From the NCBI GenBank assembly GCA_023247255.1, contig JAHFGV010000006.1, forward strand, positions 14,231 to 78,230: 64,000 nt of DNA, in the 5' to 3' direction. The translations under genes were made by a program, and so were the position numbers. Of the stretch, positions 38,294-57,987 are shown piece by piece. Within the stretch, counting starts at the first letter, position 1. The number at the start of each line of letters is the position of its first letter. The notes beneath the pieces are model-generated. The model was not told the DNA's origin, did not search any database, and saw only the letters and a program-made list of their open reading frames with translations. The DNA is from Candidatus Omnitrophota bacterium (GTDB lineage: Bacteria; Omnitrophota; Gorgyraeia; Aquiviventales; Aquiviventaceae).

Positions 38294-38553
38294 TAACGGC
38301 TAAGCAACAGCAAGTCTTGGGATACATCACGCATTACGTCATGGAGCATCAGCGTGCGCCGCTGATCCGTGAGATTCAAGAAGGGTGTCAGATCAGGTCC
38401 TATAAATCCGCGATTGACCGTTTAAGCGCCCTGGAACGCAAGGGGATCATCAAGCGTCTTTCCAACAAGCATCGCGGCATCCGCTTGCTTCAACAACCCA
38501 CCGCAGGCTCCCCAGCCGTGGAAGCAGTCCCAGCCCTTCAGGAGGTTCGCTAA
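38290..38553 (+). CDS. Stand-alone LexA-type winged-helix DNA-binding domain protein (no S24 peptidase domain)
   Basis: MITAKQQQVLGYITHYVMEHQRAPLIREIQEGCQIRSYKSAIDRLSALERKGIIKR matches the LexA N-terminal DNA-binding domain pattern; only 87 aa. Confidence 0.5.
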   Translation: MITAKQQQVLGYITHYVMEHQRAPLIREIQEGCQIRSYKSAIDRLSALERKGIIKRLSNKHRGIRLLQQPTAGSPAVEAVPALQEVR

Positions 38554-39632
38554 TGTTCAAAGATGGAGAGATCAGGGAGCCGAATAACTTAAGCTTTTTG
38601 AATGGGAAGACCCTTTTGGTTACCGGAGCAACCGGCTCATTTGGTCAACAGTTTACAGAGGCGGTGTTACGCGATAGCCATGTGAAGGCTCTGCGGATTT
38701 ACTCACGCGATGAGCTGAAACAGCACCATATGAGCCAGCTGTTTTCGGATGAGCGGTTGCGATTTTTTATTGGGGACGTGCGCGATAAGGAACGTTTGCG
38801 ACGAGCCATGCACGGTGTGGATATGGTCGTCCATGCCGCAGCGCTTAAGCAGGTTCCTGCCTGTGAATACAATCCTTTCGAGGCCGTGAAGACTAATATC
38901 CTCGGGGCAGTTAACATCATTGATACGGCCATTGACTGTAACGTGCAGCGAGTGATTGCCCTAAGTAGCGATAAGGCTGTGAATCCGATCAACCTCTATG
39001 GAGCGACTAAATTATGCGCGGAGAAGCTGTTTGTACAAAGCAACGCCTATTCTGGGCTGGATGGGACCCGTTTCAGTTCGGTTCGGTATGGCAACGTCGT
39101 GGGCAGCCGGGGCAGTGTTATCCCCTTGTTCCTTCAACAACGCACCCAGAGACTGGTTACCGTAACCGATAGGCGGATGACGCGTTTTTGGATCACCTTG
39201 GAACAGGGGGTGAACTTTGTCTTGCGGACCCTGGAGTTGATGCACGGCGGGGAAATCTTCGTGCCGAAGATTCCGAGCATGAACATCATGGACCTAGTCG
39301 ATGCGATTGCGCCCGATTGCGAGGTTCAATTTACCCAGATTCGTCCTGGTGAAAAACTCCATGAAATACTCATCTCCTCGGATGAGGCGCGACACACCCT
39401 GGAATTCCCAGACATGTTTGTCATTCAGCCCATGCATCCTTGGTGGAAATGTGATAACTGGAAAGAGGGCAAAGCCCTTCCGGACGGATTCGTTTACAGC
39501 AGCAACGCCAATCCACAGCAACTCAGTGTGGAGATTCTTCGGAACATGGTCGCTAGTCTCGGTGAGATGGAAGAATTCGCATCAACCGCAACGGGAGGCG
39601 CACCTGTCATGAAAGACACCAATGGCGACTGA
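38553..39632 (+). CDS. pseB: UDP-N-acetylglucosamine 4,6-dehydratase (inverting), PseB/FlaA1
   Basis: LLVTGATGSFG, ...SSDKAVNPINLYGATKLCAEK...: polysaccharide-biosynthesis CapD/PseB signatures; TAATG coupling. Confidence 0.8.
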   Translation: MFKDGEIREPNNLSFLNGKTLLVTGATGSFGQQFTEAVLRDSHVKALRIYSRDELKQHHMSQLFSDERLRFFIGDVRDKERLRRAMHGVDMVVHAAALKQVPACEYNPFEAVKTNILGAVNIIDTAIDCNVQRVIALSSDKAVNPINLYGATKLCAEKLFVQSNAYSGLDGTRFSSVRYGNVVGSRGSVIPLFLQQRTQRLVTVTDRRMTRFWITLEQGVNFVLRTLELMHGGEIFVPKIPSMNIMDLVDAIAPDCEVQFTQIRPGEKLHEILISSDEARHTLEFPDMFVIQPMHPWWKCDNWKEGKALPDGFVYSSNANPQQLSVEILRNMVASLGEMEEFASTATGGAPVMKDTNGD

Positions 39633-40851
39633 GGTTATCAGCTCCAAACCTGTTTTTAGCCATCCAGCGCTTGCGCTTTATGGAGGAACACCGATCAGGA
39701 CTCGGTTTTTGCCCTATGGGCATCAATCGATCGATGAGAGCGCTATCCAGGCGGTCGTCCAGGTGCTTCGTTCTGATTGGATCACCACAGGCCCAAAGAT
39801 TGCGGAATTCGAAGAGGCTATTGCGGCCGTTGTTGGAGCGCGGCAAGCCGTTGTGTTTAGCTCTGGAACTGCCGCTTTGCACGCCGCAGCTTTCGCGGCA
39901 GATCTTGAGCCTGGGCAGGAGGCGATCACAACGCCGCTTACGTTTTGCGCAACAGCCAATTGTATGCTCTATCAGGGAGCAAGACCTATTTTCGCTGACG
40001 TCTGTCCTGATACGCTTCTGATTGATCCCTGTGAGGTGGCTCAACGCATCACGCCTCGCACGAAAGCAATCCTTCCCGTCGACTACGCAGGGCATCCCGC
40101 GGCGTTAGGGGAATTCATGGAGCTAGCCAACCGTCATGGGCTTGTGATCATCGAAGACGCGACTCATGCCCTGGGAGCCACACATAAAGGGCGCAGGGTT
40201 GGAAGCATCGCGCACATGACGGTATTTAGCTTCCATCCAGTGAAGCACATCACGACAGGAGAAGGGGGCGCTGTCACCACAGACAATGTCCAGCTTGCCC
40301 ATCGGCTACGGAAGTTTCGGAATCATGGAATCGACTACGACCCACAGCTTCGTCAACACCACGGAACCTGGTATTACGAAATGGTGGAGCTTGGATATAA
40401 TTACCGATTGACGGATATCGGCTGTGCGCTTGGGCTTTCACAGTTGCGATCCCTTGAGGCGAATCTTGCCAGACGACGCGCTCTAGCGGACCGGTATACA
40501 GCGGCCTTAGCCGATCTTCCTGGCTTGACTCCCCCGGTGGTTCATACAGACGTTGAACCCGCATGGCATCTGTATCCTGTTCGGCTTGAATTAGCGAAAC
40601 TGCGCGTGGGGCGGGAAGAAATCTTTCGGGCTTTGCGCGCGGAGAATATCGGCGTCAACGTGCATTACATCCCCGTGCATCTTCATCCCTACTATCGCGC
40701 TCGATTCGGATATCGTGGGGGGGAATACCCCGTGGCTGAAATGGCCTACGAGCAATTGATCAGCCTGCCGATGTTTCCTGGCATGAGCGACTCAGATATC
40801 GAGGACGTCATCGAAGCACTGAGAAAGGTCATGAGCTACTATGCCCGGTGA
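39622..40851 (+). CDS. pseC: UDP-4-amino-4,6-dideoxy-N-acetyl-beta-L-altrosamine transaminase, PseC-like (DegT family)
   Basis: LPYGHQSIDESAIQAVVQVLRSDWITTGPKIAEFEEA... is the PseC-type N-terminus; PLP-Lys region FSFHPVKHIT. Confidence 0.75.
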   Translation: MATEVISSKPVFSHPALALYGGTPIRTRFLPYGHQSIDESAIQAVVQVLRSDWITTGPKIAEFEEAIAAVVGARQAVVFSSGTAALHAAAFAADLEPGQEAITTPLTFCATANCMLYQGARPIFADVCPDTLLIDPCEVAQRITPRTKAILPVDYAGHPAALGEFMELANRHGLVIIEDATHALGATHKGRRVGSIAHMTVFSFHPVKHITTGEGGAVTTDNVQLAHRLRKFRNHGIDYDPQLRQHHGTWYYEMVELGYNYRLTDIGCALGLSQLRSLEANLARRRALADRYTAALADLPGLTPPVVHTDVEPAWHLYPVRLELAKLRVGREEIFRALRAENIGVNVHYIPVHLHPYYRARFGYRGGEYPVAEMAYEQLISLPMFPGMSDSDIEDVIEALRKVMSYYAR

Positions 40852-45607: not shown

Positions 45608-46644
45608 CAGAAGCCATTCAGGTGCTTGTCACAGGCGTTGGAGGCGATTTAGGTCAGGCGTTGGTGAAGGCCTTGCGGCTCAGCACGAGGCCGATCGTGT
45701 GTCATGGGAGCGATGCGGATGAGGCAGGCGTTGGGGCTGTATTTGTGGAGAGTTTTCAGATACTCCCACGGGCAGAAGATCCGAGTTATGTCAACGTGTT
45801 AGACCGGGTTTGTGGTGCCTTGGGTGTTGACGTGGTGATTCCTGGGAGTGAGCAAGAGATCGCTGTCTTGAGTCAACTGGGTCAGCCACCCCGGCTGCCG
45901 TCCGGCATTCGAGTCATCTGCCAGCAGTGGAGCTGGATCGAACGCTACGGTGACAAACTCACGTGTATGCAAACACTCACTGGGCATGTTGAGCTGTCGC
46001 CATTTGCGGACGGCGCTGATCGTCAGGCAGTGGCCGATGTCATTCAGCAAGTCGGATTCCCGGTGGTGGTGAAGTCTCGCCGCTCCAGAGGATCGCGAAG
46101 CCTACGCGTGGTCCACGATCAGCCAGAGCTGGACCGAGCGCTCAAGGCCACATCGCTTCCACTTCTCCAGGCTTTCCTCGATGACTCAGGTGGAGAATTT
46201 TCAGTGGGGGTTTTTGCGTGCGAGCCATTTTCGTCAGCCATTGCCTTCAAGCGCCAGTTGGGTCCCAGCGGGTGTTCTTGGTTTGCCCAGACCTCAACGG
46301 ATGCATCGGTCCTGGACTACGCCATGGCAATTGCTCGACTCTCCCACCTCAAAGGGAGCGCGAACATTCAGGTCCGAAAAACGTCACAGGGGGTTCGACT
46401 GCTTGAAGTCAACCCGCGCTTTTCCAGTCTCGTTGCGGCGAGAGCCGCTTGCGGATTTCGGGATGTGGAGTGGGCAATCGAGTTGGCCTTGGGGCGGAGT
46501 CTTGAGCAACCCGATGGGGAATTTCGGCATCTTCGCTTCCGTCGTTTCTTTCATGAACTGGTGGATGTCGGGGAGGGTTTCAAGGCGGTTGCCCAATGGT
46601 CCCCGAGGGAAATGCCGATGGCGTGTTGGAGGGTTAAGCGGTGA
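45604..46644 (+). CDS. ATP-grasp domain protein (carboxylate-amine ligase-like)
   Basis: PylC/CarB-like pre-ATP-grasp plus ATP-grasp pattern (...FPVVVKSRRSRGSRSL..., ...LEVNPRFS...). Confidence 0.55.
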   Translation: MTEAIQVLVTGVGGDLGQALVKALRLSTRPIVCHGSDADEAGVGAVFVESFQILPRAEDPSYVNVLDRVCGALGVDVVIPGSEQEIAVLSQLGQPPRLPSGIRVICQQWSWIERYGDKLTCMQTLTGHVELSPFADGADRQAVADVIQQVGFPVVVKSRRSRGSRSLRVVHDQPELDRALKATSLPLLQAFLDDSGGEFSVGVFACEPFSSAIAFKRQLGPSGCSWFAQTSTDASVLDYAMAIARLSHLKGSANIQVRKTSQGVRLLEVNPRFSSLVAARAACGFRDVEWAIELALGRSLEQPDGEFRHLRFRRFFHELVDVGEGFKAVAQWSPREMPMACWRVKR

Positions 46645-47693
46645 GGGCGTCTTTAGTCCTTCGGGCGGATGGCGGTCCACGTATTGGAGCGGGCCATGTG
46701 ATGCGCTGTTTGGCTCTGGCGCAGGCGTGGCAAGATACTGGCGGGCAGGCGGTATTTGTCATGGCCGAGCCCACCCCCACGCTGGAGGCACGAGTGCAAG
46801 CCGAAGGTATGCAGGTTATCAGGATTTCCGCAACACCTGGGAGCCATGATGATGCTTGCCAAACGGTTCGGCTGGCGCGACACCTCGATGCCTCCTGGGT
46901 TGTAGTGGACAGCTACCAGTGGGACACTGTGTCCCAGCGAATCGTAAAGGATGCGGGTCTGAGACTTTTGGTCATGGATGATATGGGTCAGGTGGGACGT
47001 TATGAGGCGGACTTGATCCTCAACCAGAACTTGCATGCCCACGAAGGACTTTATGCGAACCGACCCTCTACCTGTGAGCTCTTGTTGGGAGGGGAGTATG
47101 TCTTGTTACGAAGAGAATTTCTCCAATGGCAGGAATGGAGGCGGGAGATTCCTAGCGTTGGGCGCAATCTGCTGATCATGTTGGGTGGCAGTGATCCAGA
47201 AAATCTGACGCTTCGCTTGATCGAGGCGTTTCACACTATGGAGATCGAAAAGATTCAGGTAGTAGTAGTCATCGGAGGCATGAATCCGTACTATTCTCAA
47301 TTACAGGAAGTTATTAGGAGTTGTCGGGTTCCGATCCGGTTGGAACGTGAGGTGACACGGATGGCGGAGTTGATGGCGTGGGCCGACGTAGCCATTTCCT
47401 CAGGAGGCACGACCGTTTGGGAATGTGCCTTTATGGGGCTGCCCACTATTGTCGGTGTCATCGCAGAGGTTGAGGATTATCTAGTGAGTGGGCTCCGGAG
47501 GCATGGACTCTTTCTGCATCTAGGCTGGTTTAGAGAAACACCGGTGGAACAGCTTATGAACCTGCTGACGGTATTGACGAATGACCAACTGCAGCGTCAA
47601 CATATGAGCGAGCTCGGCCGACGACTTATCAACGGTCAGGGGTGCCAGAGAGTACTCGGAAGGATAAGGAATGGGAAGTCCGCTGACTGGTAA
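46641..47693 (+). CDS. pseG: UDP-2,4-diacetamido-2,4,6-trideoxy-beta-L-altropyranose hydrolase PseG-like (MurG-like GT-B fold)
   Basis: LVLRADGGPRIGAGHVMRCLALAQAW... N-terminus typical of PseG; C-terminal ...ISSGGTTVWECAFMGLPT. Confidence 0.7.
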   Translation: MRASLVLRADGGPRIGAGHVMRCLALAQAWQDTGGQAVFVMAEPTPTLEARVQAEGMQVIRISATPGSHDDACQTVRLARHLDASWVVVDSYQWDTVSQRIVKDAGLRLLVMDDMGQVGRYEADLILNQNLHAHEGLYANRPSTCELLLGGEYVLLRREFLQWQEWRREIPSVGRNLLIMLGGSDPENLTLRLIEAFHTMEIEKIQVVVVIGGMNPYYSQLQEVIRSCRVPIRLEREVTRMAELMAWADVAISSGGTTVWECAFMGLPTIVGVIAEVEDYLVSGLRRHGLFLHLGWFRETPVEQLMNLLTVLTNDQLQRQHMSELGRRLINGQGCQRVLGRIRNGKSADW

Positions 47694-49620: not shown

Positions 49621-50312
49621 AGGCGGTGCTCTTCGACCTTGACGACACCCTCTATCCAGAACGTGAGTTCGTCACAAGCGGCTTTAGGGTTGTGGCGCGC
49701 TACCTGAGTGCACGGCATCCACTGAATAATGAAGAGGATCTGGTTCGCCAGATGTTCGCGATCTTGCAGCGCGAGGGTAGAGGGCATGTGTTCGATCGGC
49801 TACTCGATCATATAGGGCTAAATGGATCCGTGTCGGTCATGACCTTAGTCTATCTCTATCGCTCCCAGCAACCGTTACTCCACCTCTACGACGATGTTCT
49901 ACCAACACTGAAACAGCTTCGAGGTTTTGGCATGCGCTTAGGTTTGCTGACGGATGGGCAGGCCTGTGTCCAGCGTAATAAAATCGCTGCGCTGGATTTG
50001 GCTGATCCGTTTGATGTGATTATCTGTACAGATGAATTAGGCCGGGATTGTTGGAAACCCGCGCCCGTTTCTTACCAGGTCGCCTTACAGCTCTTAGATG
50101 TGTCCCCGGGGCAGGCCATCTATGTCGGTGATGATGCTTCTAAAGATTTCGTGGCTCCGTATGCTTTAGGCATGATGACGGCACAAATCATCCGGTCCGA
50201 CAGACCGCAACGCCAGGAGTCACCGGCTTCTGCCGATGGGGCTCATTGGGTCATCACGCGGTTGGAACAGTTGACATCAATCCTTGGGGTACCAGCCAAT
50301 GTCTTCGGGTGA
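49617..50312 (+). CDS. HAD-superfamily hydrolase (phosphatase, subfamily IA)
   Basis: MKAVLFDLDDTLY (DxD nucleophile motif I) ... LLTDG ... GDDASKD. Confidence 0.7.
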   Translation: MKAVLFDLDDTLYPEREFVTSGFRVVARYLSARHPLNNEEDLVRQMFAILQREGRGHVFDRLLDHIGLNGSVSVMTLVYLYRSQQPLLHLYDDVLPTLKQLRGFGMRLGLLTDGQACVQRNKIAALDLADPFDVIICTDELGRDCWKPAPVSYQVALQLLDVSPGQAIYVGDDASKDFVAPYALGMMTAQIIRSDRPQRQESPASADGAHWVITRLEQLTSILGVPANVFG

Positions 50313-51375
50313 GCCGTTTATCGAGATTCGTGGGCGGCGGATCGGGCCGGGATTTCCCACCTATATCATCGCTGAAATATCTGCCAATCACCGGCAGCGA
50401 TTTGACGATGCGGCAGCTCTTGTCAGGACAGCCAAAGATGCTGGGGCGGATGCTGTCAAAGTGCAGACCTATACGCCGCAGACGATGACCATTGAGGGGG
50501 ATTCTGATTTGTTTCGGCACGGTGCTGGATCTTTGTGGGCTGGCAAAACACTCTATGAGCTTTACCAACAAGCCTATATGCCTTGGGACTGGCAGCCGCG
50601 TTTGAAGGAGTTAGCCAGGGAACTTGAGATAGAATGGTTTTCTACGGCCTACGATACAAGCGCAGTCGAGTTCCTCGAGGCTATGGAAGTGCCAGTTCAC
50701 AAGGTGGCTTCTTTTGAGTTGGTGGACATCCCATTGATCAGTATGATGGCGCGGACTGGAAAGCCGCTGATTCTATCGACGGGAATGGCCAGTTCTGAAG
50801 AGATTACAGACGCGGTGCACGCAGCGCATCAAGCCGGTGCCACACAGGTGGCGTTGTTGAAGTGCACCAGCGCCTATCCAGCTCCTCCAGAATCGATGAA
50901 CCTCCGTGCGATTCCGCATTTGGCAAGGGCATTTCAGGTGCCCGTGGGACTCTCCGACCATACGCTGGGCGTTGCTGTGCCCATTGCAGCAGTTGCATTA
51001 GGAGCCTGCCTCATTGAGAAACATCTGACCTTGTCGCGAGCATTGCCGAGCGCGGATTGTGCTTTTTCGCTGGAGCCTAATGAATTTGAGGCGATGGTAG
51101 AAGCCATTCGGACGGCGGAACGCGCGATGGGACGAAGCGACATTGGGACCACGGAGCAGGAGAGCAGCAGTCGCGCTTTTCGGCGCTCATTATTTGTGGT
51201 GAAAGCCGTGCAAGCTGGCGAGGCGTTCACGGCGCAGACGATTCGTTCCATTCGTCCTGGCCATGGCCTGCCCCCAAAGTTCCTCAGTCAGGTGCTTGGG
51301 CGGCGAGCGGCACATGCTATCGCTGCCGGAACGCCGCTTGCCTGGGATCTCATCGAGACTGATGGAACATCCTAA
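50299..51375 (+). CDS. NeuB-family nonulosonic acid synthase paralog 3 with SAF domain
   Basis: YIIAEISANHRQRF...GADAVKVQTY, LSDHT, IEKHLTL, C-terminal SAF. Trimmed to the Met after the GTG-type track start. Confidence 0.7.
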   Translation: MSSGEPFIEIRGRRIGPGFPTYIIAEISANHRQRFDDAAALVRTAKDAGADAVKVQTYTPQTMTIEGDSDLFRHGAGSLWAGKTLYELYQQAYMPWDWQPRLKELARELEIEWFSTAYDTSAVEFLEAMEVPVHKVASFELVDIPLISMMARTGKPLILSTGMASSEEITDAVHAAHQAGATQVALLKCTSAYPAPPESMNLRAIPHLARAFQVPVGLSDHTLGVAVPIAAVALGACLIEKHLTLSRALPSADCAFSLEPNEFEAMVEAIRTAERAMGRSDIGTTEQESSSRAFRRSLFVVKAVQAGEAFTAQTIRSIRPGHGLPPKFLSQVLGRRAAHAIAAGTPLAWDLIETDGTS

Positions 51376-51544
51376 GCAGGCTGCTGAAAAAGGCGCATCT
51401 GCTGCGTTGCCAGCCTCGCGGCTTCGTCAGCGTACTTTTCAGTACGCCTCCTCAGCCGAATCGAGCTGCGCCTTGCATCTCGCACCTTTTTGAGCAGCCT
51501 GGGTATCACGCGAGTTTTTCCGCAGCCTGCTAGTGCTTCGACCA

Positions 51545-51576
51545 GATTGACTTGATGGGTTACCATCAAGTCAATC
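51545..51576. promoter_or_regulatory. Perfect 14+4+14 palindrome GATTGACTTGATGG-GTTA-CCATCAAGTCAATC upstream of the ACP-fabG-ligase-luxE-luxC operon; candidate operator
   Basis: Exact inverted repeat read directly; contains a TTGACT -35-like hexamer; ~70 bp upstream of the first possible start codon. Confidence 0.4.
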
Positions 51577-51648
51577 CTGCTCAGCACAGTGGTGAGATAT
51601 CCAACAAAACAAAATGGTCGAACCACTAGAGCCAAGGCGAAACCGAGT

Positions 51649-51894
51649 ATGAGTCAGACGAAGTTGGCTCGCTGTTTCGCAGAAGCGCTTGGAATTCAGG
51701 AACAGGCCGTAACAGACGAGTTGGCATATCAGACCATCAAAGAATGGGATTCCGTGCGGCACATGGCGCTTGTGGCAATCATCGAGCAGACGTTCAACGT
51801 CATGCTCGACACCAACGACATCATCGCCATGAGCAGCGTGGGAAAGGCCAAAGCGATCTTGGCGAAGTATGGCATCGACTGTGATGCTGCTTAA
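51649..51894 (+). CDS. Acyl carrier protein
   Basis: ~80-aa helical protein with the phosphopantetheine-attachment context ...KEWDSVRHMALVAIIEQTF... (DS motif). Confidence 0.7.
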   Translation: MSQTKLARCFAEALGIQEQAVTDELAYQTIKEWDSVRHMALVAIIEQTFNVMLDTNDIIAMSSVGKAKAILAKYGIDCDAA

Positions 51895-52621
51895 AGAGAA
51901 GGTCGCCATCGTCACCGGAGCAAGTCGAGGCATTGGCAAGGCGATCGCCACAACGTTTGCCAAACAGGGAGCCCAGTTGGTCATCACGGGCCGCAGTAGC
52001 GCCATTCATGAGGTAGCCTCTGAGCTGTCAACGCATGGAGAGCGAGTCGTGGCCATGCAGGGTGATCTTAGAGAGCCTGCCCACCGGCGTGAGGTCGTGA
52101 TGGCCTGTCGTAAGACGCATGGCCGTCTCGACATCCTGGTCAATAACGCGGGAGTGCTGATTCATGGTCCGCTTGGGATGACTCTGCTTGAGTCCATGCG
52201 AGACGCCTTCGAGACGAACGTAACTGCGGCGATGGCGCTGACCCAATATGCAATACGCCTGATGAGTCCTGCTCGTGATCCCTGCGTCATTAACCTTGCT
52301 TCCTTTGCCGGCACGCGTGGCCAAGAGGGCCTTGCGATCTACGCAGCCAGCAAGGCTGCGGTCGTTGGATTTACCCTCTCGACGGCGAAAGAACTAGCCT
52401 CCCAGAGAATCCGCGTCAATGCAATCGCCCCGGGCTTTATCGAGACCGACATGACCCAGGCGCTGCCCGAAGCGATCTATCGCACCATGACTGAACGGAT
52501 ACGGCTCGGACGGATCGGCGTGCCCCAGGATGTGGCGAATTGTGCCTTGTTTCTGGCATCGGATCTTGCTTCCTATATCACAGGCCAAGTGATCGGTGTA
52601 GATGGGGGCCTGCTAGCATGA
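51884..52621 (+). CDS. fabG: 3-oxoacyl-[ACP] reductase-type SDR
   Basis: KVAIVTGASRGIGKAIA, NNAG, YAASKAA, PGFIETDMT. Confidence 0.75.
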   Translation: MLLKEKVAIVTGASRGIGKAIATTFAKQGAQLVITGRSSAIHEVASELSTHGERVVAMQGDLREPAHRREVVMACRKTHGRLDILVNNAGVLIHGPLGMTLLESMRDAFETNVTAAMALTQYAIRLMSPARDPCVINLASFAGTRGQEGLAIYAASKAAVVGFTLSTAKELASQRIRVNAIAPGFIETDMTQALPEAIYRTMTERIRLGRIGVPQDVANCALFLASDLASYITGQVIGVDGGLLA

Positions 52622-54039
52622 TCGATTTTATTCGTCAGCATCGTTCGAAGCATCCAGCCGTCATCGACACAGATCGAAACCAAGTGCTATCGTATGAAAC
52701 GCTCTATGACCAAATGGAGCAGATTGCTCTGGCCATCCGCCACCTGACAAGGGATCGAACGCTGGTGTTTCTCCACTCCTCAGCGACGAGTGACTTCCTC
52801 ATCCTGTACCTCGCGTGTCTTTTTAATCGCGATCCGGTATGCTTGCTTGAGTCCGGCTTGCTGGAAGCGACGGAGAAACTGCTCGCCGCGTATCATCCGA
52901 ATCTTGTGCTGAGCCCACCCGGAATGTCAATTCCAGAGGGATACAGCGATGCTGGCAGAATCCCGGGCACCTGCTACAACTGCGCTGTGCCGAAATCAAA
53001 CCCTGCCCCCCAGAAACTTCATCAGGATCTGGCTCTGTTGCTGCCGACGTCCGGGACGACCGGCAATCCTAAATTGGTGCGACTGACCCAAAAGAACCTT
53101 CAGGCCAACGCCCAATCCATCGCACAGTATCTGGACCTATCACCCGATGAGCGCTCCATCCAGGGACTGCCTATGCACTACGCCTATGGCCTGTCGTTGG
53201 TCAACTCGCATCTGGTGGCGGGAGGGACCATCGTCTTGACTCGCTGGTCCTTCCTGCAAGCCGAGTTCTGGCGCACCTTTGACGCCCAGCGGTGCACGTC
53301 GTTTGCGGGTGTGCCGTATATGTACGAAACCCTTGATCGTCTTGCGTTCGATCCCGCCTGTCATCCATCGCTGCGGACCATGACCCAAGCGGGTGGGGCG
53401 TTGCGTCCGGATATCGTTCGCCGCCTTGGGCGCGCGGTGGCGAAGGCTGGCTGTCGGTTGTTCATCATGTACGGCCAGACGGAAGCAACCGCTCGGATCA
53501 GCTACGTACCCCCACAGCTCCTCCAGGAGAAAATCGGCTCCATCGGAATCCCTATTCCTGGAGGAAGAATGGAACTTGCTGAACTTGAGGCAACTGAAGG
53601 GTTAAAAGAGCTTGTCTATTTCGGCCCCAACGTGATGATGGGCTATGCGACGTCGGCGGCATCCCTAGCGCAGGCAGACGAGTTACACGGGAAACTCTTT
53701 AGCGGTGATCTGGCACGGGTGGATAACGATGGTTTTTTTTATATCACCGGACGCCTGAAACGATTCGCAAAGCTCTTCGGCCGGCGGATCAGTCTGGAGG
53801 ACATTGAGGCAAACTTAGAGTCCTCATTCACCGTGCGTGCCGCGGCGATCGAGGCTGATGAGCATCTGAGCGTCTACATTGAGGGAGGGGATTCCTCGGA
53901 TGCTGATAGGATCAGGCAATACCTCGCATCGTGGTTGCAGATGAGTCCGATTGCTGTGACGGTCAAGCCGATCGAGAGGATTCCAATGACTTGCTCAGGA
54001 AAGAAAGCCTATCCGGCGTTACTGGTGGAGGCGGCTTAA
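52618..54039 (+). CDS. AMP-dependent synthetase/ligase (acyl-CoA/acyl-ACP ligase)
   Basis: AMP-binding signature LLPTSGTTGNPKLV, ...YGQTEA..., C-terminal Lys region; ATGA-coupled to fabG. Confidence 0.7.
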   Translation: MIDFIRQHRSKHPAVIDTDRNQVLSYETLYDQMEQIALAIRHLTRDRTLVFLHSSATSDFLILYLACLFNRDPVCLLESGLLEATEKLLAAYHPNLVLSPPGMSIPEGYSDAGRIPGTCYNCAVPKSNPAPQKLHQDLALLLPTSGTTGNPKLVRLTQKNLQANAQSIAQYLDLSPDERSIQGLPMHYAYGLSLVNSHLVAGGTIVLTRWSFLQAEFWRTFDAQRCTSFAGVPYMYETLDRLAFDPACHPSLRTMTQAGGALRPDIVRRLGRAVAKAGCRLFIMYGQTEATARISYVPPQLLQEKIGSIGIPIPGGRMELAELEATEGLKELVYFGPNVMMGYATSAASLAQADELHGKLFSGDLARVDNDGFFYITGRLKRFAKLFGRRISLEDIEANLESSFTVRAAAIEADEHLSVYIEGGDSSDADRIRQYLASWLQMSPIAVTVKPIERIPMTCSGKKAYPALLVEAA

Positions 54040-55166
54040 TGAGCGCAATCGAGCTTGAGCTTCCGGTCATAAGTGATTTTTTTGACCTTCCACCCTATGG
54101 GCTGCCACAATCGCAGAAGGCCCAGATGCTCGTGATTCGTCTGCGGCAACTGTGTTGGCATCATTATGAGCGCTGCGTCATCTACCGACGACTCATCGAG
54201 CGGGTGTTTGGGGGCGAGGACGCGCTGAACTTCGAGCGATTGGAAGAAGTCCCCTTCATCCCCGTCCCATTGTTCAAGACGCATGCGTTGCGCAGCGTTC
54301 CAGCGGAGGCCGTTGTGAGAACCCTCGCCTCAAGCGGCACGAGCGGTCAGGTTCTCAGCCGCGTCGAGCTCGATCGTGAGACCAGTCAGCGCCAGACTCA
54401 AGTGCTGGTAAAAATCCTCCAACATTTCCTCGGGCCTCGTCGCTCCCCCATGGTCATCTTTGATCGGAAAGTGGCACTCGATCAGCCAGGTCCCTATCCG
54501 GCAAGGGTCGCGGCTCTATTGGGGATGATGCCCTTTGGGCGCGATCCGTTCTTCGCCTTAAAGGAAGACTTGTCGCTGGATATTGAGGGTTTGAGCGCCT
54601 ATCTTGCACGGGCGAGTGGAGCGGGCGGGGAGCGCGTGGTCGTCTTTGGGCTTACTGCGATTCTCTGGCAAGCGCTGGTTTTAACTATGGAGCGAGAGGG
54701 AAAGAAGCTACATATCCCTCAGGGTGTGCTCATCCACGCGGGAGGGTGGAAGAAACTTCAGGATGCCGCTGTGGGAGCCGAGGAGTTCCGGCAGAGGGTC
54801 CAAGCCGTCACAGGAATCTCGCGCATCCTCAACTTCTACGGGATGGTAGAGCAGGTGGGAAGCATCTTCTTTGAAAATCCGCGGCATTACTTGCAGGCCC
54901 CTGTCTATGCTGAGGTTATCATCCGTGATCCCATAACGCTGCGGCCTTTACCCGTCGGCGGCGTGGGACTGGTTCAGGTGCTCAGCGCGATTCCCACGAG
55001 TTATCCCGGCCACTCTCTCCTTACTGAGGATATGGGGGTCCTTCGCGGAGTGGATGATCCAACGACAGGGATGAATGGACGGTACTTTGAAATCCTGGGA
55101 CGCGTTCCGCAAGCTGAGGTGCGTGGATGCAGCGATACCTACCCGACTCAACACTCAACGACGTAG
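54039..55166 (+). CDS. luxE: LuxE-family acyl-protein synthetase
   Basis: ~375 aa with SSGTSGQVLSRVELD and overall LuxE-like organisation; start overlaps the ligase stop (TAATG). Confidence 0.6.
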   Translation: MSAIELELPVISDFFDLPPYGLPQSQKAQMLVIRLRQLCWHHYERCVIYRRLIERVFGGEDALNFERLEEVPFIPVPLFKTHALRSVPAEAVVRTLASSGTSGQVLSRVELDRETSQRQTQVLVKILQHFLGPRRSPMVIFDRKVALDQPGPYPARVAALLGMMPFGRDPFFALKEDLSLDIEGLSAYLARASGAGGERVVVFGLTAILWQALVLTMEREGKKLHIPQGVLIHAGGWKKLQDAAVGAEEFRQRVQAVTGISRILNFYGMVEQVGSIFFENPRHYLQAPVYAEVIIRDPITLRPLPVGGVGLVQVLSAIPTSYPGHSLLTEDMGVLRGVDDPTTGMNGRYFEILGRVPQAEVRGCSDTYPTQHSTT

Positions 55167-55297
55167 AGCTTGGCAGTCAGGGCCCTCGCGCTGAAGAAAT
55201 CCTCAATCGTCAGCAGAGCCCCACCCCCGATGCTTCGCTTTGTCCCTTGAAATCGCCGACAGGCGATTTCAGGGATCCAATCCCCGACAAACTCCAC

Positions 55298-56557
55298 ATG
55301 TCAGGGAACGAAGCAAAGCCTGGGGGTGCTATGGCGGGGCTGCGCATCCTGGCTCCCCGAAAATCTGAGAGTCCTCTCGCGGATTGGCTGGCTTCGTGCC
55401 GGTTTTCAAACACCCATCCCTTTGCGGCTTCACGCATCCAGTTGCTTGGGGCATTCTCACAACGCATCCTCAAAGATCCGATTCTTCGCGATGAGCCCTC
55501 AAGCGTAGCCCTGGCCTACTACTTACGCCCAGCGAACATTACGAAAATCGCAACGCATGCTCAAGCACGCGCCAAGCTTGATCCTTCCGTTCTCTGGGTG
55601 CCTTGCGGTGGGGTGTTCCATGTGGCTCCGGCTAATGTGGAGACTTTTTTCATCTACCCTTGGGCTTTGTCCTATCTTTGCGGGAACAACAATCTCGTTC
55701 GCCTCTCCCTGGAGGAGCAACCGGTAACGATGCGGCTGCTTGAGTGCCTAAACACTCTGATGGAAACCGAGGAGGAACTCTCTCATACAAACCGGTTTGT
55801 GACCTACCCGCACGATCCTGAGATTACCAGGCTGTTCTCCGACTGGTGCGCCCATCGCATCATCTGGGGAGGGGATGAGGTCATTAGAGTCCTGCGCTCG
55901 ATTCCACTGAGCCCTCATGCGACCGAGCGTGTCTTTGGCTCGAAATTCTCCTACGCCGTCATTTCGGCAATGTCCTTTCAGGAAGCTGATGAAGCGACGC
56001 GGCAGCAGGTCATCTCCCGGTTTTTCAACGACATGTTCTGGTTCAACCAGATGGCCTGTTCCTCTCCCCACGTGGTATTCTGGGTTGGCACGAAGGCCGA
56101 TGGGGCGCGTGCAGTGGCAGCGTTCAATCCATTGCTGGGTGCTGAGGTTTTGCGTCGGGGATATGCCCTGCCACCACAGCTTAGCGTCCGGCGGCTCTCG
56201 CAGGCCTTTGAACTTGCCATCCAGGATGACGTTCGGGTTGATCTTAAGCATCCGGGATTCGCGAGTATCGATGTGCCACAGCTGTCTGTGTTGCGCAAAG
56301 AGCCTTATGGAGGAGGACTGTTGCACCATGTCCAGATCGATCGTTTGGATCGACTCCTTGAAGTCGCAGCGCCCAAGGACCAGACCATCGTCCATTTCGG
56401 CTTTCATCCTGATGAACTGCAAAGTCTGGCGTTTCGCATCGGCTCTCGAGGGGTGGATCGTCTTGTGCCTATCGGTGAGGCACTGACATTTGAGGTGGTA
56501 TGGGATGGACAGGATATGATCAGCGATGGTTTACGGAAGGTCGTGATTCGATGCTAA
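55298..56557 (+). CDS. luxC: LuxC-family acyl-CoA (acyl-protein) reductase, putative
   Basis: ~420 aa following luxE, the canonical LuxC partner position; start uncertain (55298 or 55331). Confidence 0.5.
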   Translation: MSGNEAKPGGAMAGLRILAPRKSESPLADWLASCRFSNTHPFAASRIQLLGAFSQRILKDPILRDEPSSVALAYYLRPANITKIATHAQARAKLDPSVLWVPCGGVFHVAPANVETFFIYPWALSYLCGNNNLVRLSLEEQPVTMRLLECLNTLMETEEELSHTNRFVTYPHDPEITRLFSDWCAHRIIWGGDEVIRVLRSIPLSPHATERVFGSKFSYAVISAMSFQEADEATRQQVISRFFNDMFWFNQMACSSPHVVFWVGTKADGARAVAAFNPLLGAEVLRRGYALPPQLSVRRLSQAFELAIQDDVRVDLKHPGFASIDVPQLSVLRKEPYGGGLLHHVQIDRLDRLLEVAAPKDQTIVHFGFHPDELQSLAFRIGSRGVDRLVPIGEALTFEVVWDGQDMISDGLRKVVIRC

Positions 56558-57987
56558 CTGAAACTGCCAAGCCGCGTGTCCTGATTGGACTGCCAAGCGA
56601 CATCTTCCTTAGAAATTTTGTGGAGACGAAGGCGTTTACGAGTCTGAGTGAACGCTTTGAGGTCTTCTGGTTTACCACCGAGGCGGTTCGCCATGCGCTG
56701 CCAGAACTTCCCGGCTTTACCCGCGTGGAATCCTGCAAGATAGATCCACGACGGGATATGATCCGCTACCATCTGCGTTGGTTGGCGGTTTTTGCTGGAC
56801 GTTCACGCAGTAGGCTTATGCGGTTGAAGGCCTTGAGCGTGGGATCCAGGCGCGAGCGGTGGCCGTATACGCTTCTGAGTGCGCCGGGTGTCTGGCCGAT
56901 TACGGATGCGCTCGTTGAGGCATGGCTAGGTCAGAACCAGTCGCTTGCGGCGATCTTCGATGCGGTCAAGCCGGACGTGGCGGTCTTCCCCTCGCAGGGC
57001 AATGATTCCTTCGCCATCGACATCATGAAAGTAGCAAAGTCGCGGAGGGTTCATACGGTAATGCTCAACTACAATTGGGACAATATGGGATCCAAAGGCG
57101 CCATGAGGATCAAGCCCGATCGGCTCTGTGTCTGGGGAGAAGATATGGCAGCCTTGGCGCGGCAGGTCCATCACCTGCGGCCAGAGCAGATTCGGATCAT
57201 CGGAGCCGCCCAGTTCCAGCAATATTTTGATCCCGAGCAGATGGCTGCCGCATCACGCGCCGCGGCGCAATCCCCTCAGGAGCCACCGCGGCTTTTATTT
57301 GCGGGAGCATCTCGAGGTCATCCTGAGGCTCGGTTTCTTAAGACCCTCGATGAAGCCATCGAGACCCATCGCTTGCCAGCGCTTCAGATCATCTATCGGC
57401 CGCATCCCTGGCGTGCGCCTCGTCCGCATGAAAACCCCTTTCACGCCTATGGCTACCGTCATATCACGATGGATCGGCAAGTCGCTGGTCAGTTTATGGT
57501 CGATGATATGAACGCACCCACCAAGCGCGTCGATTACACGTTTGCGCCCTCGATTGCGTACAACGCCGAATTGCTCCACTCAATCCGTGGGGTCATAACG
57601 CCTCTGTCGACTCTCTCCTTGGAAGCAGCCTTGGTCGGCGTACCGGTGCTGGCGATTCACTTTCCCGAGGAACGTTGGCTGAAGGATGCGCTGGATAACT
57701 TTGAACACTTACAGCGGATGTGCCGTCAGGTACCCGGCGTCGTAATCTGTCGCGAGGAACCTCGCTTCCTCGAGGCTGTCCGGCAACTCTTGGAACTGGG
57801 AGGTGATCCGACGCTTCCGGCTCGGATGCGAGAAGCCATCAAGCCGATTCTCTATGCCGATGGCGCCACGACCTATGCGGATCGGCTCGCCAGCGTTATT
57901 GAGGAAGTCTTGGGAAAGCGAGAGAATCTATCCAAGATGCAAGAGCCTGTGGAGTCCTGTATTCCCGTTGAAGGCTGGGTGAGGTAA
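56551..57987 (+). CDS. Unknown ~480-aa soluble protein, possibly a GT-B-fold transferase (candidate nonulosonate or glycerophospho-transferase)
   Basis: Two Rossmann-like alpha/beta halves; no confident family match from sequence reading; 7-bp overlap with luxC. Confidence 0.35.
   Translation: MLTETAKPRVLIGLPSDIFLRNFVETKAFTSLSERFEVFWFTTEAVRHALPELPGFTRVESCKIDPRRDMIRYHLRWLAVFAGRSRSRLMRLKALSVGSRRERWPYTLLSAPGVWPITDALVEAWLGQNQSLAAIFDAVKPDVAVFPSQGNDSFAIDIMKVAKSRRVHTVMLNYNWDNMGSKGAMRIKPDRLCVWGEDMAALARQVHHLRPEQIRIIGAAQFQQYFDPEQMAAASRAAAQSPQEPPRLLFAGASRGHPEARFLKTLDEAIETHRLPALQIIYRPHPWRAPRPHENPFHAYGYRHITMDRQVAGQFMVDDMNAPTKRVDYTFAPSIAYNAELLHSIRGVITPLSTLSLEAALVGVPVLAIHFPEERWLKDALDNFEHLQRMCRQVPGVVICREEPRFLEAVRQLLELGGDPTLPARMREAIKPILYADGATTYADRLASVIEEVLGKRENLSKMQEPVESCIPVEGWVR

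What the first reader, a model, noticed from the sequence alone, without database searches (positions are those of the whole stretch)
51545..56557. ACP, FabG, AMP-ligase, LuxE, LuxC acyl-activation/reduction module embedded in a nonulosonic acid cluster
Five overlapping, translationally coupled genes encode an acyl carrier protein, a 3-oxoacyl reductase, an adenylating ligase, a LuxE-type acyl-protein synthetase and a LuxC-type reductase. They sit downstream of a perfect palindromic operator. ACP-linked 3-hydroxyacyl groups (for example 3-hydroxybutyryl) are known N-substituents of pseudaminic and legionaminic acids, but a LuxC/LuxE aldehyde-forming pair in such a context is not a described pathway. 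It could generate an acyl-aldehyde or activated acyl donor for modification of the sugar or its acceptor.
Basis: inference. Interest (0 to 1): 0.55.

Follow-up and report, generated by a model that had tools for sequence, protein, structure and literature searches.

The report
Acyl-carrier/LuxE/LuxC sugar-acylation gene cassette
This is a real five-gene cassette that most likely builds an unusual acyl group for decorating amino sugars, but the same gene set is already described in Aeromonas and enterobacterial glycosylation islands, so this copy is a new member of a known, biochemically uncharacterised kind.

Summary
On the + strand lie an 81-aa carrier protein, a FabG-like SDR, a 473-aa adenylating ligase, a LuxE-family protein (PF04443, E 1e-47) and a LuxC-family protein (PF05893, E 5e-22). 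They sit between PseI and a further NeuB gene, downstream of a perfect 14-bp palindrome. Catalytic residues are intact in all of them.

The claim that the context is undescribed is wrong. The same five genes, in the same order and among pse genes, are reported in 98 Aeromonas strains and in Enterobacteriaceae flagellin glycosylation islands. Vibrio cholerae O1 uses an ACP, a ligase and a LuxC/LuxE fusion for the tetronate N-acyl group of perosamine.

In 80 related loci from more than 12 phyla the cassette is nearly invariant. 91% of fully flanked loci carry glycan genes, only 32-40% carry nonulosonate genes, and 79% carry an N-acyltransferase candidate.

Most likely it turns a short dicarboxylic acid into a hydroxyacyl-ACP donor for N-acylation of amino sugars, not a fatty "liposugar". 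No step has been shown biochemically, and no transferase was identified in this window.

The parts
51377..51502 (+). Long imperfect hairpin immediately after the pseI stop codon. It is part of a 285-nt intergenic region that folds far better than shuffled sequence.
   Evidence: MFE -121.6 kcal/mol, z = -7.2, 0 of 200 shuffles as stable. No Rfam family. Function unknown.
51545..51576 (.). Perfect 14-bp inverted repeat with a 4-nt spacer, 74 nt upstream of the ACP start codon. It could be a protein-binding site or an RNA hairpin.
   Evidence: None of 20 shuffles gave a 14-bp inverted repeat. It is unique in the window, the loci and metagenome contigs. No promoter or terminator consensus.
51650..51894 (+). 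Dedicated acyl carrier protein (81 aa) with the phosphopantetheine-attachment Ser in an EWDSVRHM motif.
   Evidence: PF00550, 20.9 bits. The same gene call appears on the source contig. A homologue lies on the same strand upstream of the cassette in 70 of 80 related loci, with the Ser motif conserved.
51884..52621 (+). FabG-like classical SDR (245 aa). It is the proposed aldehyde/oxo-group reductase of the cassette.
   Evidence: adh_short_C2 E 8e-64. It scores below the FabG equivalog cut-off. TGxxxGIG and YxxxK motifs are present in the translation. Present in 50 of 53 fully flanked loci.
52618..54039 (+). ANL-family adenylating ligase (473 aa). It is the proposed loader of the carrier protein.
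   Evidence: PF00501 E 5e-45. The closest solved relatives are oxalyl-/oxalate-CoA ligases, malonyl-CoA ligase and MenE. It has an LPMHY motif with His, as in acid-CoA ligases rather than the Asp of amino-acid adenylation domains, and a C-terminal GK. Present in 53 of 53 loci.
54039..55166 (+). LuxE-family acyl-protein synthetase (375 aa).
   Evidence: PF04443 E 1e-47. K238, R355 and C364 are invariant in 20 homologues and align with K238/R355/C364 of Photobacterium LuxE, PDB 7XC6_E (PMC9157457). Only 80 bits against the LuxE equivalog cut-off of 550.
55127..56557 (+). LuxC-family thioester reductase. The ORF is 476 aa; the part conserved in relatives starts at Met69 (55331, 408 aa).
   Evidence: PF05893 E 5e-22. 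A profile of 16 homologues hits LuxC 7XC6_A at E 2e-14, with DQxACSSP aligned to the catalytic-Cys motif DQQACFS. C311 and N170 are invariant. The protein ends about 30 residues before the C-terminus of true LuxC.
50284..51375 (+). Context: pseudaminic acid synthase PseI, directly upstream.
   Evidence: TIGR03586, 459 bits against a cut-off of 340.
38553..40851 (+). Context: PseB and PseC. PseC makes the UDP-4-amino sugar that is the likely acyl acceptor.
   Evidence: TIGR03589, 488 bits. TIGR03588, 470 bits.
46641..47693 (+). Context: PseG.
   Evidence: TIGR03590, 218 bits against a cut-off of 153.55.
56500..57987 (+). Neighbour that overlaps the LuxC stop codon but is not part of the cassette: a GT-B-fold protein of a rare family.
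   Evidence: Only 12 homologues found. They occur next to NeuB-NeuC-2-hydroxyacid-dehydrogenase genes in loci without LuxE/LuxC. No homologue in the 80 cassette loci. The model (pLDDT 85.6) matches GT-B glycosyltransferases and UDP-GlcNAc 2-epimerases.

Best explanation
The five genes form a self-contained module that makes a non-acetyl acyl group on its own carrier protein. That acyl group is then used to N-acylate an amino sugar of a surface glycan.

Here the most likely acceptor is the 4-amino group of the PseC product, which becomes N7 of pseudaminic acid. No PseH acetyltransferase was found in the window.

Proposed chemistry (inferred, not shown):
1. The LuxE-like enzyme adenylates one carboxylate of a short dicarboxylic or oxo-/hydroxy-dicarboxylic acid and acylates its own Cys364.
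2. The acyl group passes to Cys311 of the LuxC-like enzyme and is reduced by NADPH to an aldehyde.
3. The SDR reduces the aldehyde (or an oxo group) to an alcohol.
4. The ANL ligase adenylates the other carboxylate and loads it onto the carrier protein. Whether loading comes before or after the reductions is open.

Net reaction: dicarboxylate + 2 ATP + 2 NAD(P)H gives omega-hydroxyacyl-S-ACP. Candidate products are 4-hydroxybutanoyl from succinate, a dihydroxybutanoyl ("tetronate"-type) group from malate, and 3-hydroxypropanoyl from malonate.

A separate GNAT, hexapeptide-repeat or other N-acyltransferase then moves the group to the sugar. That transferase is adjacent to the cassette in most relatives but was not identified in this window.

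My probability that this is an acyl-donor module for sugar N-acylation is about 0.7. My probability for the specific dicarboxylate-to-hydroxyacyl route is about 0.4.
For: Shown here:
- All five families are present with intact catalytic residues.
- The set is conserved as a block. All five genes are present in 49 of 53 fully flanked loci drawn from more than 12 phyla, out of at least 597 species genomes matched.
- 48 of 53 loci carry glycan genes and 30 carry a DegT-type sugar aminotransferase.
- 42 of 53 carry an N-acyltransferase candidate (GNAT, PglD-like hexapeptide, Antibiotic_NAT). One lies within two genes of the cassette in 48 of 79 loci.
- A RefSeq-annotated Deinococcus plasmid reads sugar transferase, ACP, SDR, AMP-binding protein, acyl-protein synthetase, acyl-CoA reductase, acetyltransferase.
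- The window has PseB, PseC, PseG and PseI but no detectable PseH.

Inferred, favouring a short dicarboxylate:
- There are two separate carboxylate-adenylating enzymes but no ketosynthase, dehydratase, enoyl reductase or LuxD.
- The ligase's nearest solved relatives activate oxalate, malonate and succinylbenzoate, and it has the His-type motif rather than the amino-acid Asp motif.
- The LuxC-like proteins lack the C-terminal segment that in true LuxC covers the long hydrophobic acyl cleft (PMC9157457).
- In Aeromonas AH-3, which carries the same cassette, the linking sugar is a 376.14-Da Pse derivative and the glycan ends in an unknown 102-Da unit (PMC7874193). By my arithmetic, 316.13 (Pse5Ac7Ac) - 42.01 + 102.03 (C4H6O3) = 376.15. 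No lipid-sized mass is reported.
- omega-Hydroxyacyl amides such as 4-hydroxybutyramido sugars exist in bacterial glycans (PMC3210612).
Against: - No enzyme of this cassette has been assayed anywhere. The substrate, chain length and order of steps are inference.
- In this window no acyltransferase sits next to the cassette. The nearest GNAT-like gene (62374-63501) travels with sialic-acid-type loci that lack the cassette.
- The similarity of the ligase to dicarboxylate ligases is only about 25-30% identity within a very broad superfamily.
- The 376-Da and 102-Da masses fit other C4H6O3 groups, such as O-methylglyceroyl. The Aeromonas mutants that were made left the cassette intact.
- I could not align the V. 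cholerae or Aeromonas proteins with these ones, because their sequences were not obtainable with the tools.
- The two ATP-grasp ligases in the window could also acylate the sugar amines by an ACP-independent route.
Confidence: 0.5

Rival explanations
1. Liposugar reading, as in the literature. The cassette channels a long-chain fatty acid into a fatty aldehyde or acyl group, as LuxCDE does, and the glycan carries a lipid.
For: LuxC and LuxE are known only as the fatty-acid reductase of bioluminescence (PMC9157457). The authors of the Aeromonas and Enterobacteriaceae surveys proposed a liposugar. PGAP names some homologues long-chain fatty acid--CoA ligase.
Against: - There is no LuxD, luciferase or fatty-acid elongation enzyme in the cassette or within 10 kb of it.
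- LuxE scores 80 bits against the equivalog cut-off of 550.
- The LuxC-like proteins lack the C-terminal element of the long hydrophobic cleft.
- The Aeromonas AH-3 glycopeptide masses are fully accounted for by 376 Da + Hex + HexNAc + 102 Da, with no lipid-sized increment.
Confidence: 0.12
2. Split-function reading. ACP, ligase and SDR alone make a 3-hydroxyacyl-ACP such as 3-hydroxybutyryl from acetoacetate. LuxE and LuxC separately make a free aldehyde for another purpose, for example a substrate for transamination or for a different modification.
For: 3-Hydroxybutyryl is the commonest non-acetyl N-acyl group on nonulosonic acids and amino sugars (PMC3210612). The SDR is FabG-like. DegT or class-III aminotransferases are frequent neighbours.
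Against: LuxE, LuxC and the ligase co-occur in 78-79 of 80 loci and are contiguous on one strand, which argues for one pathway. Known 3-hydroxybutyryl systems, from my own knowledge of the Pseudomonas syringae vio genes, use a KAS III with ACP and FabG and have no LuxCE.
Confidence: 0.15
3. Transferase reading. The LuxC-like protein does not reduce. It uses its acyl-Cys intermediate to pass the acyl group on, to the carrier protein or directly to the sugar amine, so LuxE/LuxC would be the missing acyltransferase system.
For: No acyltransferase adjoins the cassette in this window or in about 40% of related loci. The LuxC-like proteins are about 70 residues shorter than true LuxC at both ends combined.
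Against: The ALDH-type Asn170 and Cys311 are invariant, and the cofactor-domain GN motif (G186/N187) is invariant as well. In most loci a dedicated N-acyltransferase is present next to the cassette.
Confidence: 0.08

Closest known systems
Aeromonas group II polar-flagellin glycosylation island genes orf1-orf3, luxE, luxC (PMC7874193), and the Acp/FabG/CaiC/LuxE/LuxC genes of Enterobacteriaceae flagellin glycosylation islands (PMC4875605)
   Same: The same five protein families occur. In Aeromonas they have the same order and lie among pseudaminic-acid genes. They are conserved as a block, and the function has not been tested.
   Different: No flagellin or recognisable maf gene lies in this window. 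The locus also has three extra NeuB paralogues, two ATP-grasp genes and an ABC exporter downstream, so the glycan's carrier is unknown. In Aeromonas pseH immediately precedes orf1, whereas here pseI does and no pseH was found. Direct sequence comparison was not possible.
Vibrio cholerae O1 tetronate module wbeK-wbeO (rfbK-O), which N-acylates perosamine with 3-deoxy-L-glycero-tetronate
   Same: It has a carrier protein, an adenylating ligase of about 470 aa, and LuxC- plus LuxE-type domains, sits inside a glycan locus, and is genetically required for the N-acylated O-antigen (PMC3441752 and PMC9915646). The pathway proposal of Morona et al. 1995 is from my own knowledge. It is the best mechanistic analogue.
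   Different: LuxC and LuxE are fused in one 825-aa protein there and are separate genes here. From my own knowledge, the alcohol-forming step there is assigned to an iron alcohol dehydrogenase (wbeM) and a hexapeptide acetyltransferase (wbeO) is adjacent. Here an SDR takes the reductase place and no transferase is adjacent. The acceptor sugar also differs.
LuxC-LuxE fatty-acid reductase of bacterial bioluminescence (PDB 7XC6)
   Same: Same Pfam families. LuxE K238/R355/C364 and the LuxC catalytic Cys and Asn are conserved.
   Different: There is no luxD or luxAB. Scores are far below the equivalog cut-off. The LuxC-like protein lacks the C-terminal cleft-forming segment. The pair is joined to its own ACP, ligase and SDR in a glycan locus.

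Membership tests
Lux fatty-acid reductase (LuxC/LuxE of lux operons) | Match to the LuxE (PF04443) and LuxC (PF05893) family models above the gathering score | tested here: met
   163.3 bits against a cut-off of 24.9, and 78.7 bits against a cut-off of 21.
Lux fatty-acid reductase (LuxC/LuxE of lux operons) | Catalytic residues: LuxE Lys238/Arg355/Cys364 and the LuxC active-site Cys | tested here: met
   K238, R355 and C364 are invariant and aligned to 7XC6_E. C311 in DQMACSSP aligns to DQQACFS of 7XC6_A. Residue roles are taken from PMC9157457.
Lux fatty-acid reductase (LuxC/LuxE of lux operons) | Orthologue-level score to LuxE (NCBIfam NF052244, cut-off 550 bits) | tested here: not met
   80.4 bits. 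No NCBIfam hit at all for the LuxC-like protein.
Lux fatty-acid reductase (LuxC/LuxE of lux operons) | Partner genes luxD (acyl transferase) and luxA/luxB (luciferase) in the operon | tested here: not met
   The gene and Pfam lists for 10 kb either side of LuxE show none.
Lux fatty-acid reductase (LuxC/LuxE of lux operons) | C-terminal LuxC segment (P460-P488 in the paper's numbering) that forms the long hydrophobic acyl cleft | tested here: not met
   The profile alignment ends at residue 444 of the 477-residue 7XC6_A chain, with 4 profile positions left. The feature is described in PMC9157457.
Glycosylation-island ACP/reductase/ligase/LuxE/LuxC cassette (Aeromonas group II FGI type) | All five gene families on one strand in the order ACP, 3-oxoacyl-ACP-reductase-like, AMP-dependent synthetase, LuxE, LuxC | tested here: met
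   Searches compared with the description in PMC7874193. All five genes are present in 49 of 53 fully flanked related loci, and the ACP-SDR-ligase-LuxE-LuxC order is the commonest arrangement.
Glycosylation-island ACP/reductase/ligase/LuxE/LuxC cassette (Aeromonas group II FGI type) | Embedded among pseudaminic-acid biosynthesis genes | tested here: met
   PseB, PseC and PseG lie upstream and PseI is adjacent.
Glycosylation-island ACP/reductase/ligase/LuxE/LuxC cassette (Aeromonas group II FGI type) | Linkage to flagellin and maf genes, making it a flagellin glycosylation island | tested here: not met
   tblastn with a flagellin N-domain finds nothing in the window. It finds flagellin in only 3 of 80 related loci. 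No maf-type Pfam hit for the unknown ORFs.
Glycosylation-island ACP/reductase/ligase/LuxE/LuxC cassette (Aeromonas group II FGI type) | Sequence orthology to the Aeromonas or enterobacterial proteins themselves | not testable with these tools
   Those sequences were not among the 80 best loci and could not be fetched.
V. cholerae O1 tetronate module (WbeK/L/M/N/O) | Carrier protein, adenylating ligase of about 470 aa, and LuxC- and LuxE-type domains in a glycan locus | tested here: met
V. cholerae O1 tetronate module (WbeK/L/M/N/O) | LuxC and LuxE fused in one polypeptide, an iron alcohol dehydrogenase, and an adjacent acetyltransferase | tested here: not met
   LuxE and LuxC are separate genes, an SDR replaces the Fe-ADH, and no transferase is adjacent in the window.
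FabG (3-oxoacyl-ACP reductase) equivalog | Score above the TIGR01830 / NF004198 cut-offs | tested here: not met
   239 bits against 297.75, and 226 against 296. It passes only a generic SDR subfamily model.
Canonical CMP-pseudaminic acid pathway (PseB, C, H, G, I, F) | All six enzymes present | tested here: not met
   PseB, PseC, PseG and PseI pass their equivalog cut-offs. No PseH or PseF model hit was found among the ORFs scanned between 35 and 64 kb. The only candidates are a weak CTP_transf_3 hit at 41947-42831 and a clearer cytidylyltransferase about 5 kb beyond the window's end.

The most novel reading that the evidence does not exclude
The cassette is a very widespread and still uncharacterised "carboxylate-reduction on demand" pathway. 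It was found in at least 597 species-level genomes across more than 12 phyla. In this reading it makes omega-hydroxy- or dihydroxy-acyl-ACP donors from central dicarboxylic acids. It would be the missing biosynthetic origin of orphan N-acyl groups on bacterial amino sugars, such as 4-hydroxybutanoyl, tetronate-type dihydroxybutanoyl and 3-hydroxypropanoyl. That would include the unresolved 376-Da pseudaminic acid derivative and the 102-Da cap of Aeromonas flagellin. In this locus it would replace PseH, giving a pseudaminic acid with a hydroxyacyl group at N7.
Probability: 0.35. Interest if true: 0.6.

Novelty: new member of a known kind. Interest (0 to 1): 0.35.

Why it matters
N-acyl groups on nonulosonic acids and other amino sugars shape antigenicity, phage receptors and flagellar assembly. 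The genes behind most non-acetyl groups are unknown. This cassette is common, modular and horizontally mobile among glycan loci, yet databases label it as bioluminescence or fatty-acid genes and the literature treats it as a "liposugar" module. A correct assignment would improve glycan-structure prediction from genomes, for example in serotyping Aeromonas, Cronobacter, Pantoea and Vibrio. It would also provide enzymes for making hydroxyacyl-modified sugars. This particular instance adds little beyond another example, from an uncultured bacterium, in an unusually complex locus with four NeuB genes.

Tried and rejected
- The 495-aa ORF overlapping the LuxC stop codon was tested as a sixth cassette gene or as the missing acyltransferase. 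Rejected. It has no homologue in the 80 cassette loci. Its 12 relatives sit in NeuB-NeuC loci without LuxCE. Its model is GT-B fold.
- The GNAT-like ORF at 62374-63501 was tested as the transferase. Not supported. Its family, paired with a polysaccharide deacetylase, occurs in sialic-acid-type loci of Photorhabdus and Yersinia ruckeri without the cassette. Its similarity to the unknown families found next to LuxC elsewhere is only weak (hhalign probability 19%).
- Palindrome as a regulon operator. No second site in the window, the fetched loci or JGI metagenome contigs, and no promoter consensus. Left open.
- Intergenic region as a known RNA. Only a sub-threshold miRNA hit in Rfam.
- The minus-strand 87-aa ORF in that region has a P-loop and a marginal helicase hit (E 4e-4) but no tblastn match in plasmids. 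Treated as probably spurious.
- Amino-acid loading by the ligase (DltA-like). Disfavoured by the His-type rather than Asp-type core motif.
- A literature search for dihydroxybutanoyl- or 4-hydroxybutyryl-pseudaminic acids found nothing relevant in the held library. The AH-3 primary paper (PMC3431630) is not held.
- phmmer of the LuxC-like protein alone against PDB found nothing. A profile was needed.
- Taxonomic assignment of the source failed.

Full report
**1. What is there**

The + strand between 51.6 and 56.6 kb carries five consecutive genes. Pfam assigns them as follows:
- a phosphopantetheine-binding carrier protein (51650-51894; PF00550 just above threshold);
- a classical SDR (51884-52621; adh_short_C2 E 8e-64);
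- an AMP-binding ligase (52618-54039; E 5e-45);
- a LuxE-family acyl-protein synthetase (54039-55166; PF04443 E 1e-47);
- a LuxC-family reductase (55127-56557; PF05893 E 5e-22).

The same gene calls exist on the public metagenome contig that holds this sequence, ENA ERZ27280021 k141_6271840.

NCBIfam shows that none of them is an orthologue of the named enzymes:
- The SDR falls below the FabG equivalog cut-off (239 vs 297.75 bits).
- The LuxE-like protein scores 80 bits against a cut-off of 550.
- The LuxC-like protein hits nothing.

Gene junctions are tight. ACP/SDR overlap by 11 nt, SDR/ligase share ATGA, and ligase/LuxE share TAATG. The LuxE/LuxC overlap of 40 nt depends on the 55127 start codon. 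In an alignment with 15 relatives the first 68 residues have no counterpart and homology starts at Met69, at 55331.

**2. The upstream palindrome**

GATTGACTTGATGG-GTTA-CCATCAAGTCAATC at 51545-51576 is a perfect 14-bp inverted repeat. None of 20 shuffles of the window produced a 14-bp inverted repeat.

It lies in a 275-nt gap between pseI and the ACP gene. The 285-nt stretch around that gap that was folded (51376-51660) is much more stable than shuffled sequence (z = -7.2). It includes a 126-nt imperfect hairpin immediately after the pseI stop codon.

The tests of its function were negative:
- No sigma-70-type promoter or intrinsic terminator is recognisable.
- No Rfam family matches.
- The site occurs nowhere else in the window, in the fetched loci (which include adjacent parts of the source contig), or in JGI metagenome contigs.

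"Operator" is therefore only one possible reading. An RNA hairpin is equally possible.

**3. Context**

Upstream lie PseB, PseC, PseG and PseI, all above their equivalog cut-offs. There are also two extra NeuB-family genes, two ATP-grasp ligases, a HAD hydrolase, a metallophosphoesterase and two epimerase/reductase-type genes.

Downstream lie a fourth NeuB, a NeuC-like epimerase and a GNAT-like gene. Beyond the window the contig continues with a deacetylase, a 2-hydroxyacid dehydrogenase, a TPP enzyme, a cytidylyltransferase, a methyltransferase and an ABC exporter.

No PseH or PseF equivalog was found. No flagellin is present. The window from about 18 kb onward is one large sugar-nucleotide and glycan locus.

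**4. Already described**

A full-text search found the same gene set in the literature.

Enterobacteriaceae flagellin glycosylation islands carry Acp, FabG, CaiC, LuxE and LuxC in 71-80 strains (PMC4875605).

Both papers guess at a "liposugar". Neither tests the genes.

In V. cholerae O1, tetronate acylation of perosamine depends on wbeL, a 471-aa protein with an ATP-binding domain (PMC3441752). [quoted passage not shown] From my own knowledge, the 1995 proposal of Morona and colleagues is that these proteins convert malate to ACP-bound 3-deoxy-tetronate together with an ACP, an iron alcohol dehydrogenase and an acetyltransferase.

**5. Distribution**

I scanned one genome per GTDB species using two conserved LuxE peptides. 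I kept the best 80. They come from:
- Planctomycetota, Gemmatimonadota, Nitrospirota, Verrucomicrobiota and Acidobacteriota;
- Bacillota (both Bacilli and Clostridia), Bacteroidota and Actinomycetota;
- Pseudomonadota (alpha, beta and gamma);
- Spirochaetota, Chlamydiota and several candidate phyla.

I analysed them locally with tblastn, all-against-all clustering and cluster HMMs. Among the 53 loci with full 10-kb flanks:

| Feature | Loci (of 53) |
|---|---|
| LuxC-like | 53 |
| Ligase | 53 |
| SDR | 50 |
| ACP on the same strand upstream | 50 |
| All five genes | 49 |
| NeuB, PseG or CMP-synthetase gene | 21 |
| Both PseG and NeuB | 17 |
| DegT-type aminotransferase | 30 |
| N-acyltransferase candidate | 42 |
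| Some glycan marker | 48 |

The usual order is ACP-SDR-ligase-LuxE-LuxC. A second arrangement places the ACP directly before the ligase, with the SDR elsewhere.

Pfam annotation of recurrent neighbours gave GNAT and PglD-like hexapeptide transferases immediately upstream. Hexapeptide, Antibiotic_NAT-type and formyltransferase-like proteins lie immediately downstream. Other neighbours are GT2/GT4 glycosyltransferases, polysaccharide deacetylases (including DUF3473), AsnB-like amidotransferases, Wzy and an EpsI-type protein.

An acyltransferase candidate lies within two genes of the cassette in 48 of 79 loci. A RefSeq-annotated Deinococcus plasmid shows the pattern plainly: glycosyltransferases, EpsG, sugar transferase, ACP, SDR, AMP-binding protein, acyl-protein synthetase, acyl-CoA reductase, acetyltransferase. 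A Rhizobium plasmid shows a variant with a split transketolase and an LpxA-like transferase. The same split transketolase occurs in 10-12 of the 80 loci.

The cassette is therefore a mobile module of glycan loci in general. It is not specific to pse or leg genes, and it is not found away from glycan genes.

**6. Are the enzymes competent?**

- LuxE-like: K238, R355 and C364 are invariant in 20 homologues. They align residue for residue with the Lys238/Arg355 pair and the acylated Cys364 of Photobacterium LuxE (roles from PMC9157457).
- LuxC-like: a 16-sequence profile finds LuxC (7XC6_A) at E 2e-14. The invariant Cys311 in DQxACSSP lies opposite the catalytic cysteine motif DQQACFS, and Asn170 is invariant.
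- The alignment stops at residue 444 of the 477-residue LuxC chain with only four profile positions left. The cassette proteins therefore lack the C-terminal segment that, according to the cryo-EM paper, reaches over from the neighbouring subunit to form the long L-shaped hydrophobic cleft for the C14 chain.
- Ligase: the closest solved relatives are oxalyl-/oxalate-CoA ligases, a feruloyl-CoA synthetase, MenE and malonyl-CoA ligases. It has the His-containing LPMHY core motif of acid-CoA ligases rather than the Asp of amino-acid adenylation domains, and it keeps the C-terminal GK.
- ACP: the serine sits in an EWDSVxHM motif conserved in 74 sequences.

**7. Most likely mechanism**

The content is two carboxylate-adenylating enzymes, one thioester reductase, one alcohol-forming reductase and one carrier. 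There is no condensing, dehydrating or enoyl-reducing enzyme. That does not fit fatty-acid synthesis.

It does fit reduction of one carboxylate of a short di-acid to an alcohol, by LuxE-like, LuxC-like and then the SDR. The other carboxylate would be attached to the carrier by the ligase, giving an omega-hydroxyacyl-ACP that a neighbouring N-acyltransferase uses. This is the logic proposed for V. cholerae tetronate.

It also fits the only relevant glycan data. Aeromonas AH-3, which has the cassette, links its flagellin glycan through a 376.14-Da pseudaminic acid derivative and caps it with an unknown 102-Da unit. A C4H6O3 acyl residue weighs 102.03 Da, and replacing one acetyl of Pse5Ac7Ac (316.13 Da) by it gives 376.15 Da. 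That is my arithmetic, and O-methylglyceroyl is isobaric. The fgi-1 mutant, which retains the cassette, keeps the 376-Da sugar.

4-Hydroxybutyramido and 2-hydroxyglutaryl amides on bacterial amino sugars show that such groups exist (PMC3210612).

In this window, the presence of PseB/C/G/I with no PseH suggests the acyl group goes onto the PseC product. All of this is inference.

The weakest point for this locus is that no transferase was identified.

**8. Boundaries**

The 495-aa ORF that overlaps the LuxC stop codon is not part of the module. It belongs to a rare family of 12 proteins. Members sit beside NeuB, NeuC and 2-hydroxyacid-dehydrogenase genes in loci without LuxCE. It is absent from the 80 cassette loci. 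It is predicted with good confidence to have a GT-B fold. It is probably a glycosyltransferase of the downstream nonulosonate module.

The GNAT-like ORF at 62374-63501 with its following deacetylase is likewise a pair found in sialic-acid-type loci without the cassette.

**9. Verdict**

The interpretation as an acyl-activation and reduction module feeding sugar modification is reasonable, and it is strengthened by the comparative data.

The novelty claim does not hold. This is a further member of a cassette that is already catalogued, widely distributed and routinely annotated in RefSeq, and that has a 30-year-old mechanistic analogue in V. cholerae.

What remains open, and moderately interesting, is the chemistry. 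My reading is a short reduced dicarboxylate rather than a lipid. It differs from the published guess and can be tested directly.

Noticed in passing
window 51376-51660: The pseI-ACP intergenic region folds far better than shuffled sequence (MFE -121.6 kcal/mol, z -7.2). It contains a 126-nt imperfect hairpin (51377-51502) plus the 14-bp perfect hairpin. No Rfam family matches and no promoter or terminator consensus is present.
   Followed up: partly
window 51372-51635 (- strand): An 87-aa antisense ORF across that intergenic region carries a Walker-A-like AGCGKT and gives marginal hits to SF1 helicase N-termini (PF01443, E 4e-4, just under the cut-off). A 64-aa version was gene-called on the public contig. 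It has no tblastn match in plasmids. It is probably spurious, or possibly a gene relic marking a module junction.
   Followed up: partly
window 248-375, 8347-8602, 9562-9817, 25885-26172, 63493-63723: A family of intergenic repeat elements of about 250 nt, rich in CATGACACATGA-type motifs. Copies occur in both orientations at 85-100% identity (MITE/REP-like).
   Followed up: no
window 5086-5198, 21395-21444, 42831-42855, 58032-58278: A second intergenic repeat family (CAATCGAAAATCCAAAATCGACAATCGAAAAT and its complement). It includes a 133-nt tandem duplication between the 495-aa ORF and the fourth NeuB gene.
   Followed up: no
window 38553-63501: An unusually complex nonulosonate locus. It has four NeuB-family genes (40958, 42933, 50284 = PseI, 58280), a NeuC-like gene (61175), two PylC-like ATP-grasp ligases (45604, 48637), a HAD hydrolase and a YfcE-type phosphodiesterase. 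No PseH or PseF equivalog was found. It probably makes more than one nonulosonic acid.
   Followed up: partly
window 56500-57987: A rare GT-B-fold protein family (12 homologues in 5.8 billion clusters) with a weak hit to the BFO_1060 glycosyltransferase family. It always lies beside NeuB-NeuC-2-hydroxyacid dehydrogenase genes. It is a candidate nonulosonic-acid transferase.
   Followed up: yes
window 62374-63501 and the next gene (beyond 63739): A GNAT of about 370 aa followed by a polysaccharide deacetylase. This pair is conserved in sialic-acid-type loci of Photorhabdus, Yersinia ruckeri, Vibrio, Pseudomonas and Cronobacter. Its function is unknown.
   Followed up: partly
window 59356-61230: A 624-aa ORF between NeuB and NeuC with no Pfam or NCBIfam hit. 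In a related locus (L086) a 640-aa protein assigned to PF27878 (PFTS_polysacc) lies just upstream of the homologue of the 495-aa ORF; I did not test whether it is related to this ORF.
   Followed up: no
window 33449-36104: A TPP-dependent (acetolactate-synthase-like) enzyme and ketopantoate hydroxymethyltransferase PanB sit inside the sugar-nucleotide cluster. A second TPP enzyme lies downstream of the window. They may supply a branched keto- or hydroxy-acid for glycan decoration.
   Followed up: no
window 55127-55330: The 68-residue N-terminal extension of the LuxC-like ORF is low-complexity and absent from all 15 aligned homologues. Both 55127 (GAGG 9 nt upstream) and 55331 (GGGGG 5 nt upstream) look like usable start codons.
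   Followed up: partly
L016-L018, L049, L058, L065, L073, L075, L076, L078, L080, L083; L092 3408-5232: A cassette variant in which a split transketolase (N and C halves) accompanies ACP-ligase-LuxE-LuxC, with the SDR displaced. On a Rhizobium plasmid it is followed by an LpxA-like acyltransferase. This may point to a different acyl precursor.
   Followed up: partly
L009 8566-9971; L078 766-3016 and 10001-12272: In a Nitrospirota MAG the ligase gene is broken into three ORFs, by frameshifts or assembly errors. An Oscillibacter MAG carries two LuxE-LuxC pairs in one locus.
   Followed up: no
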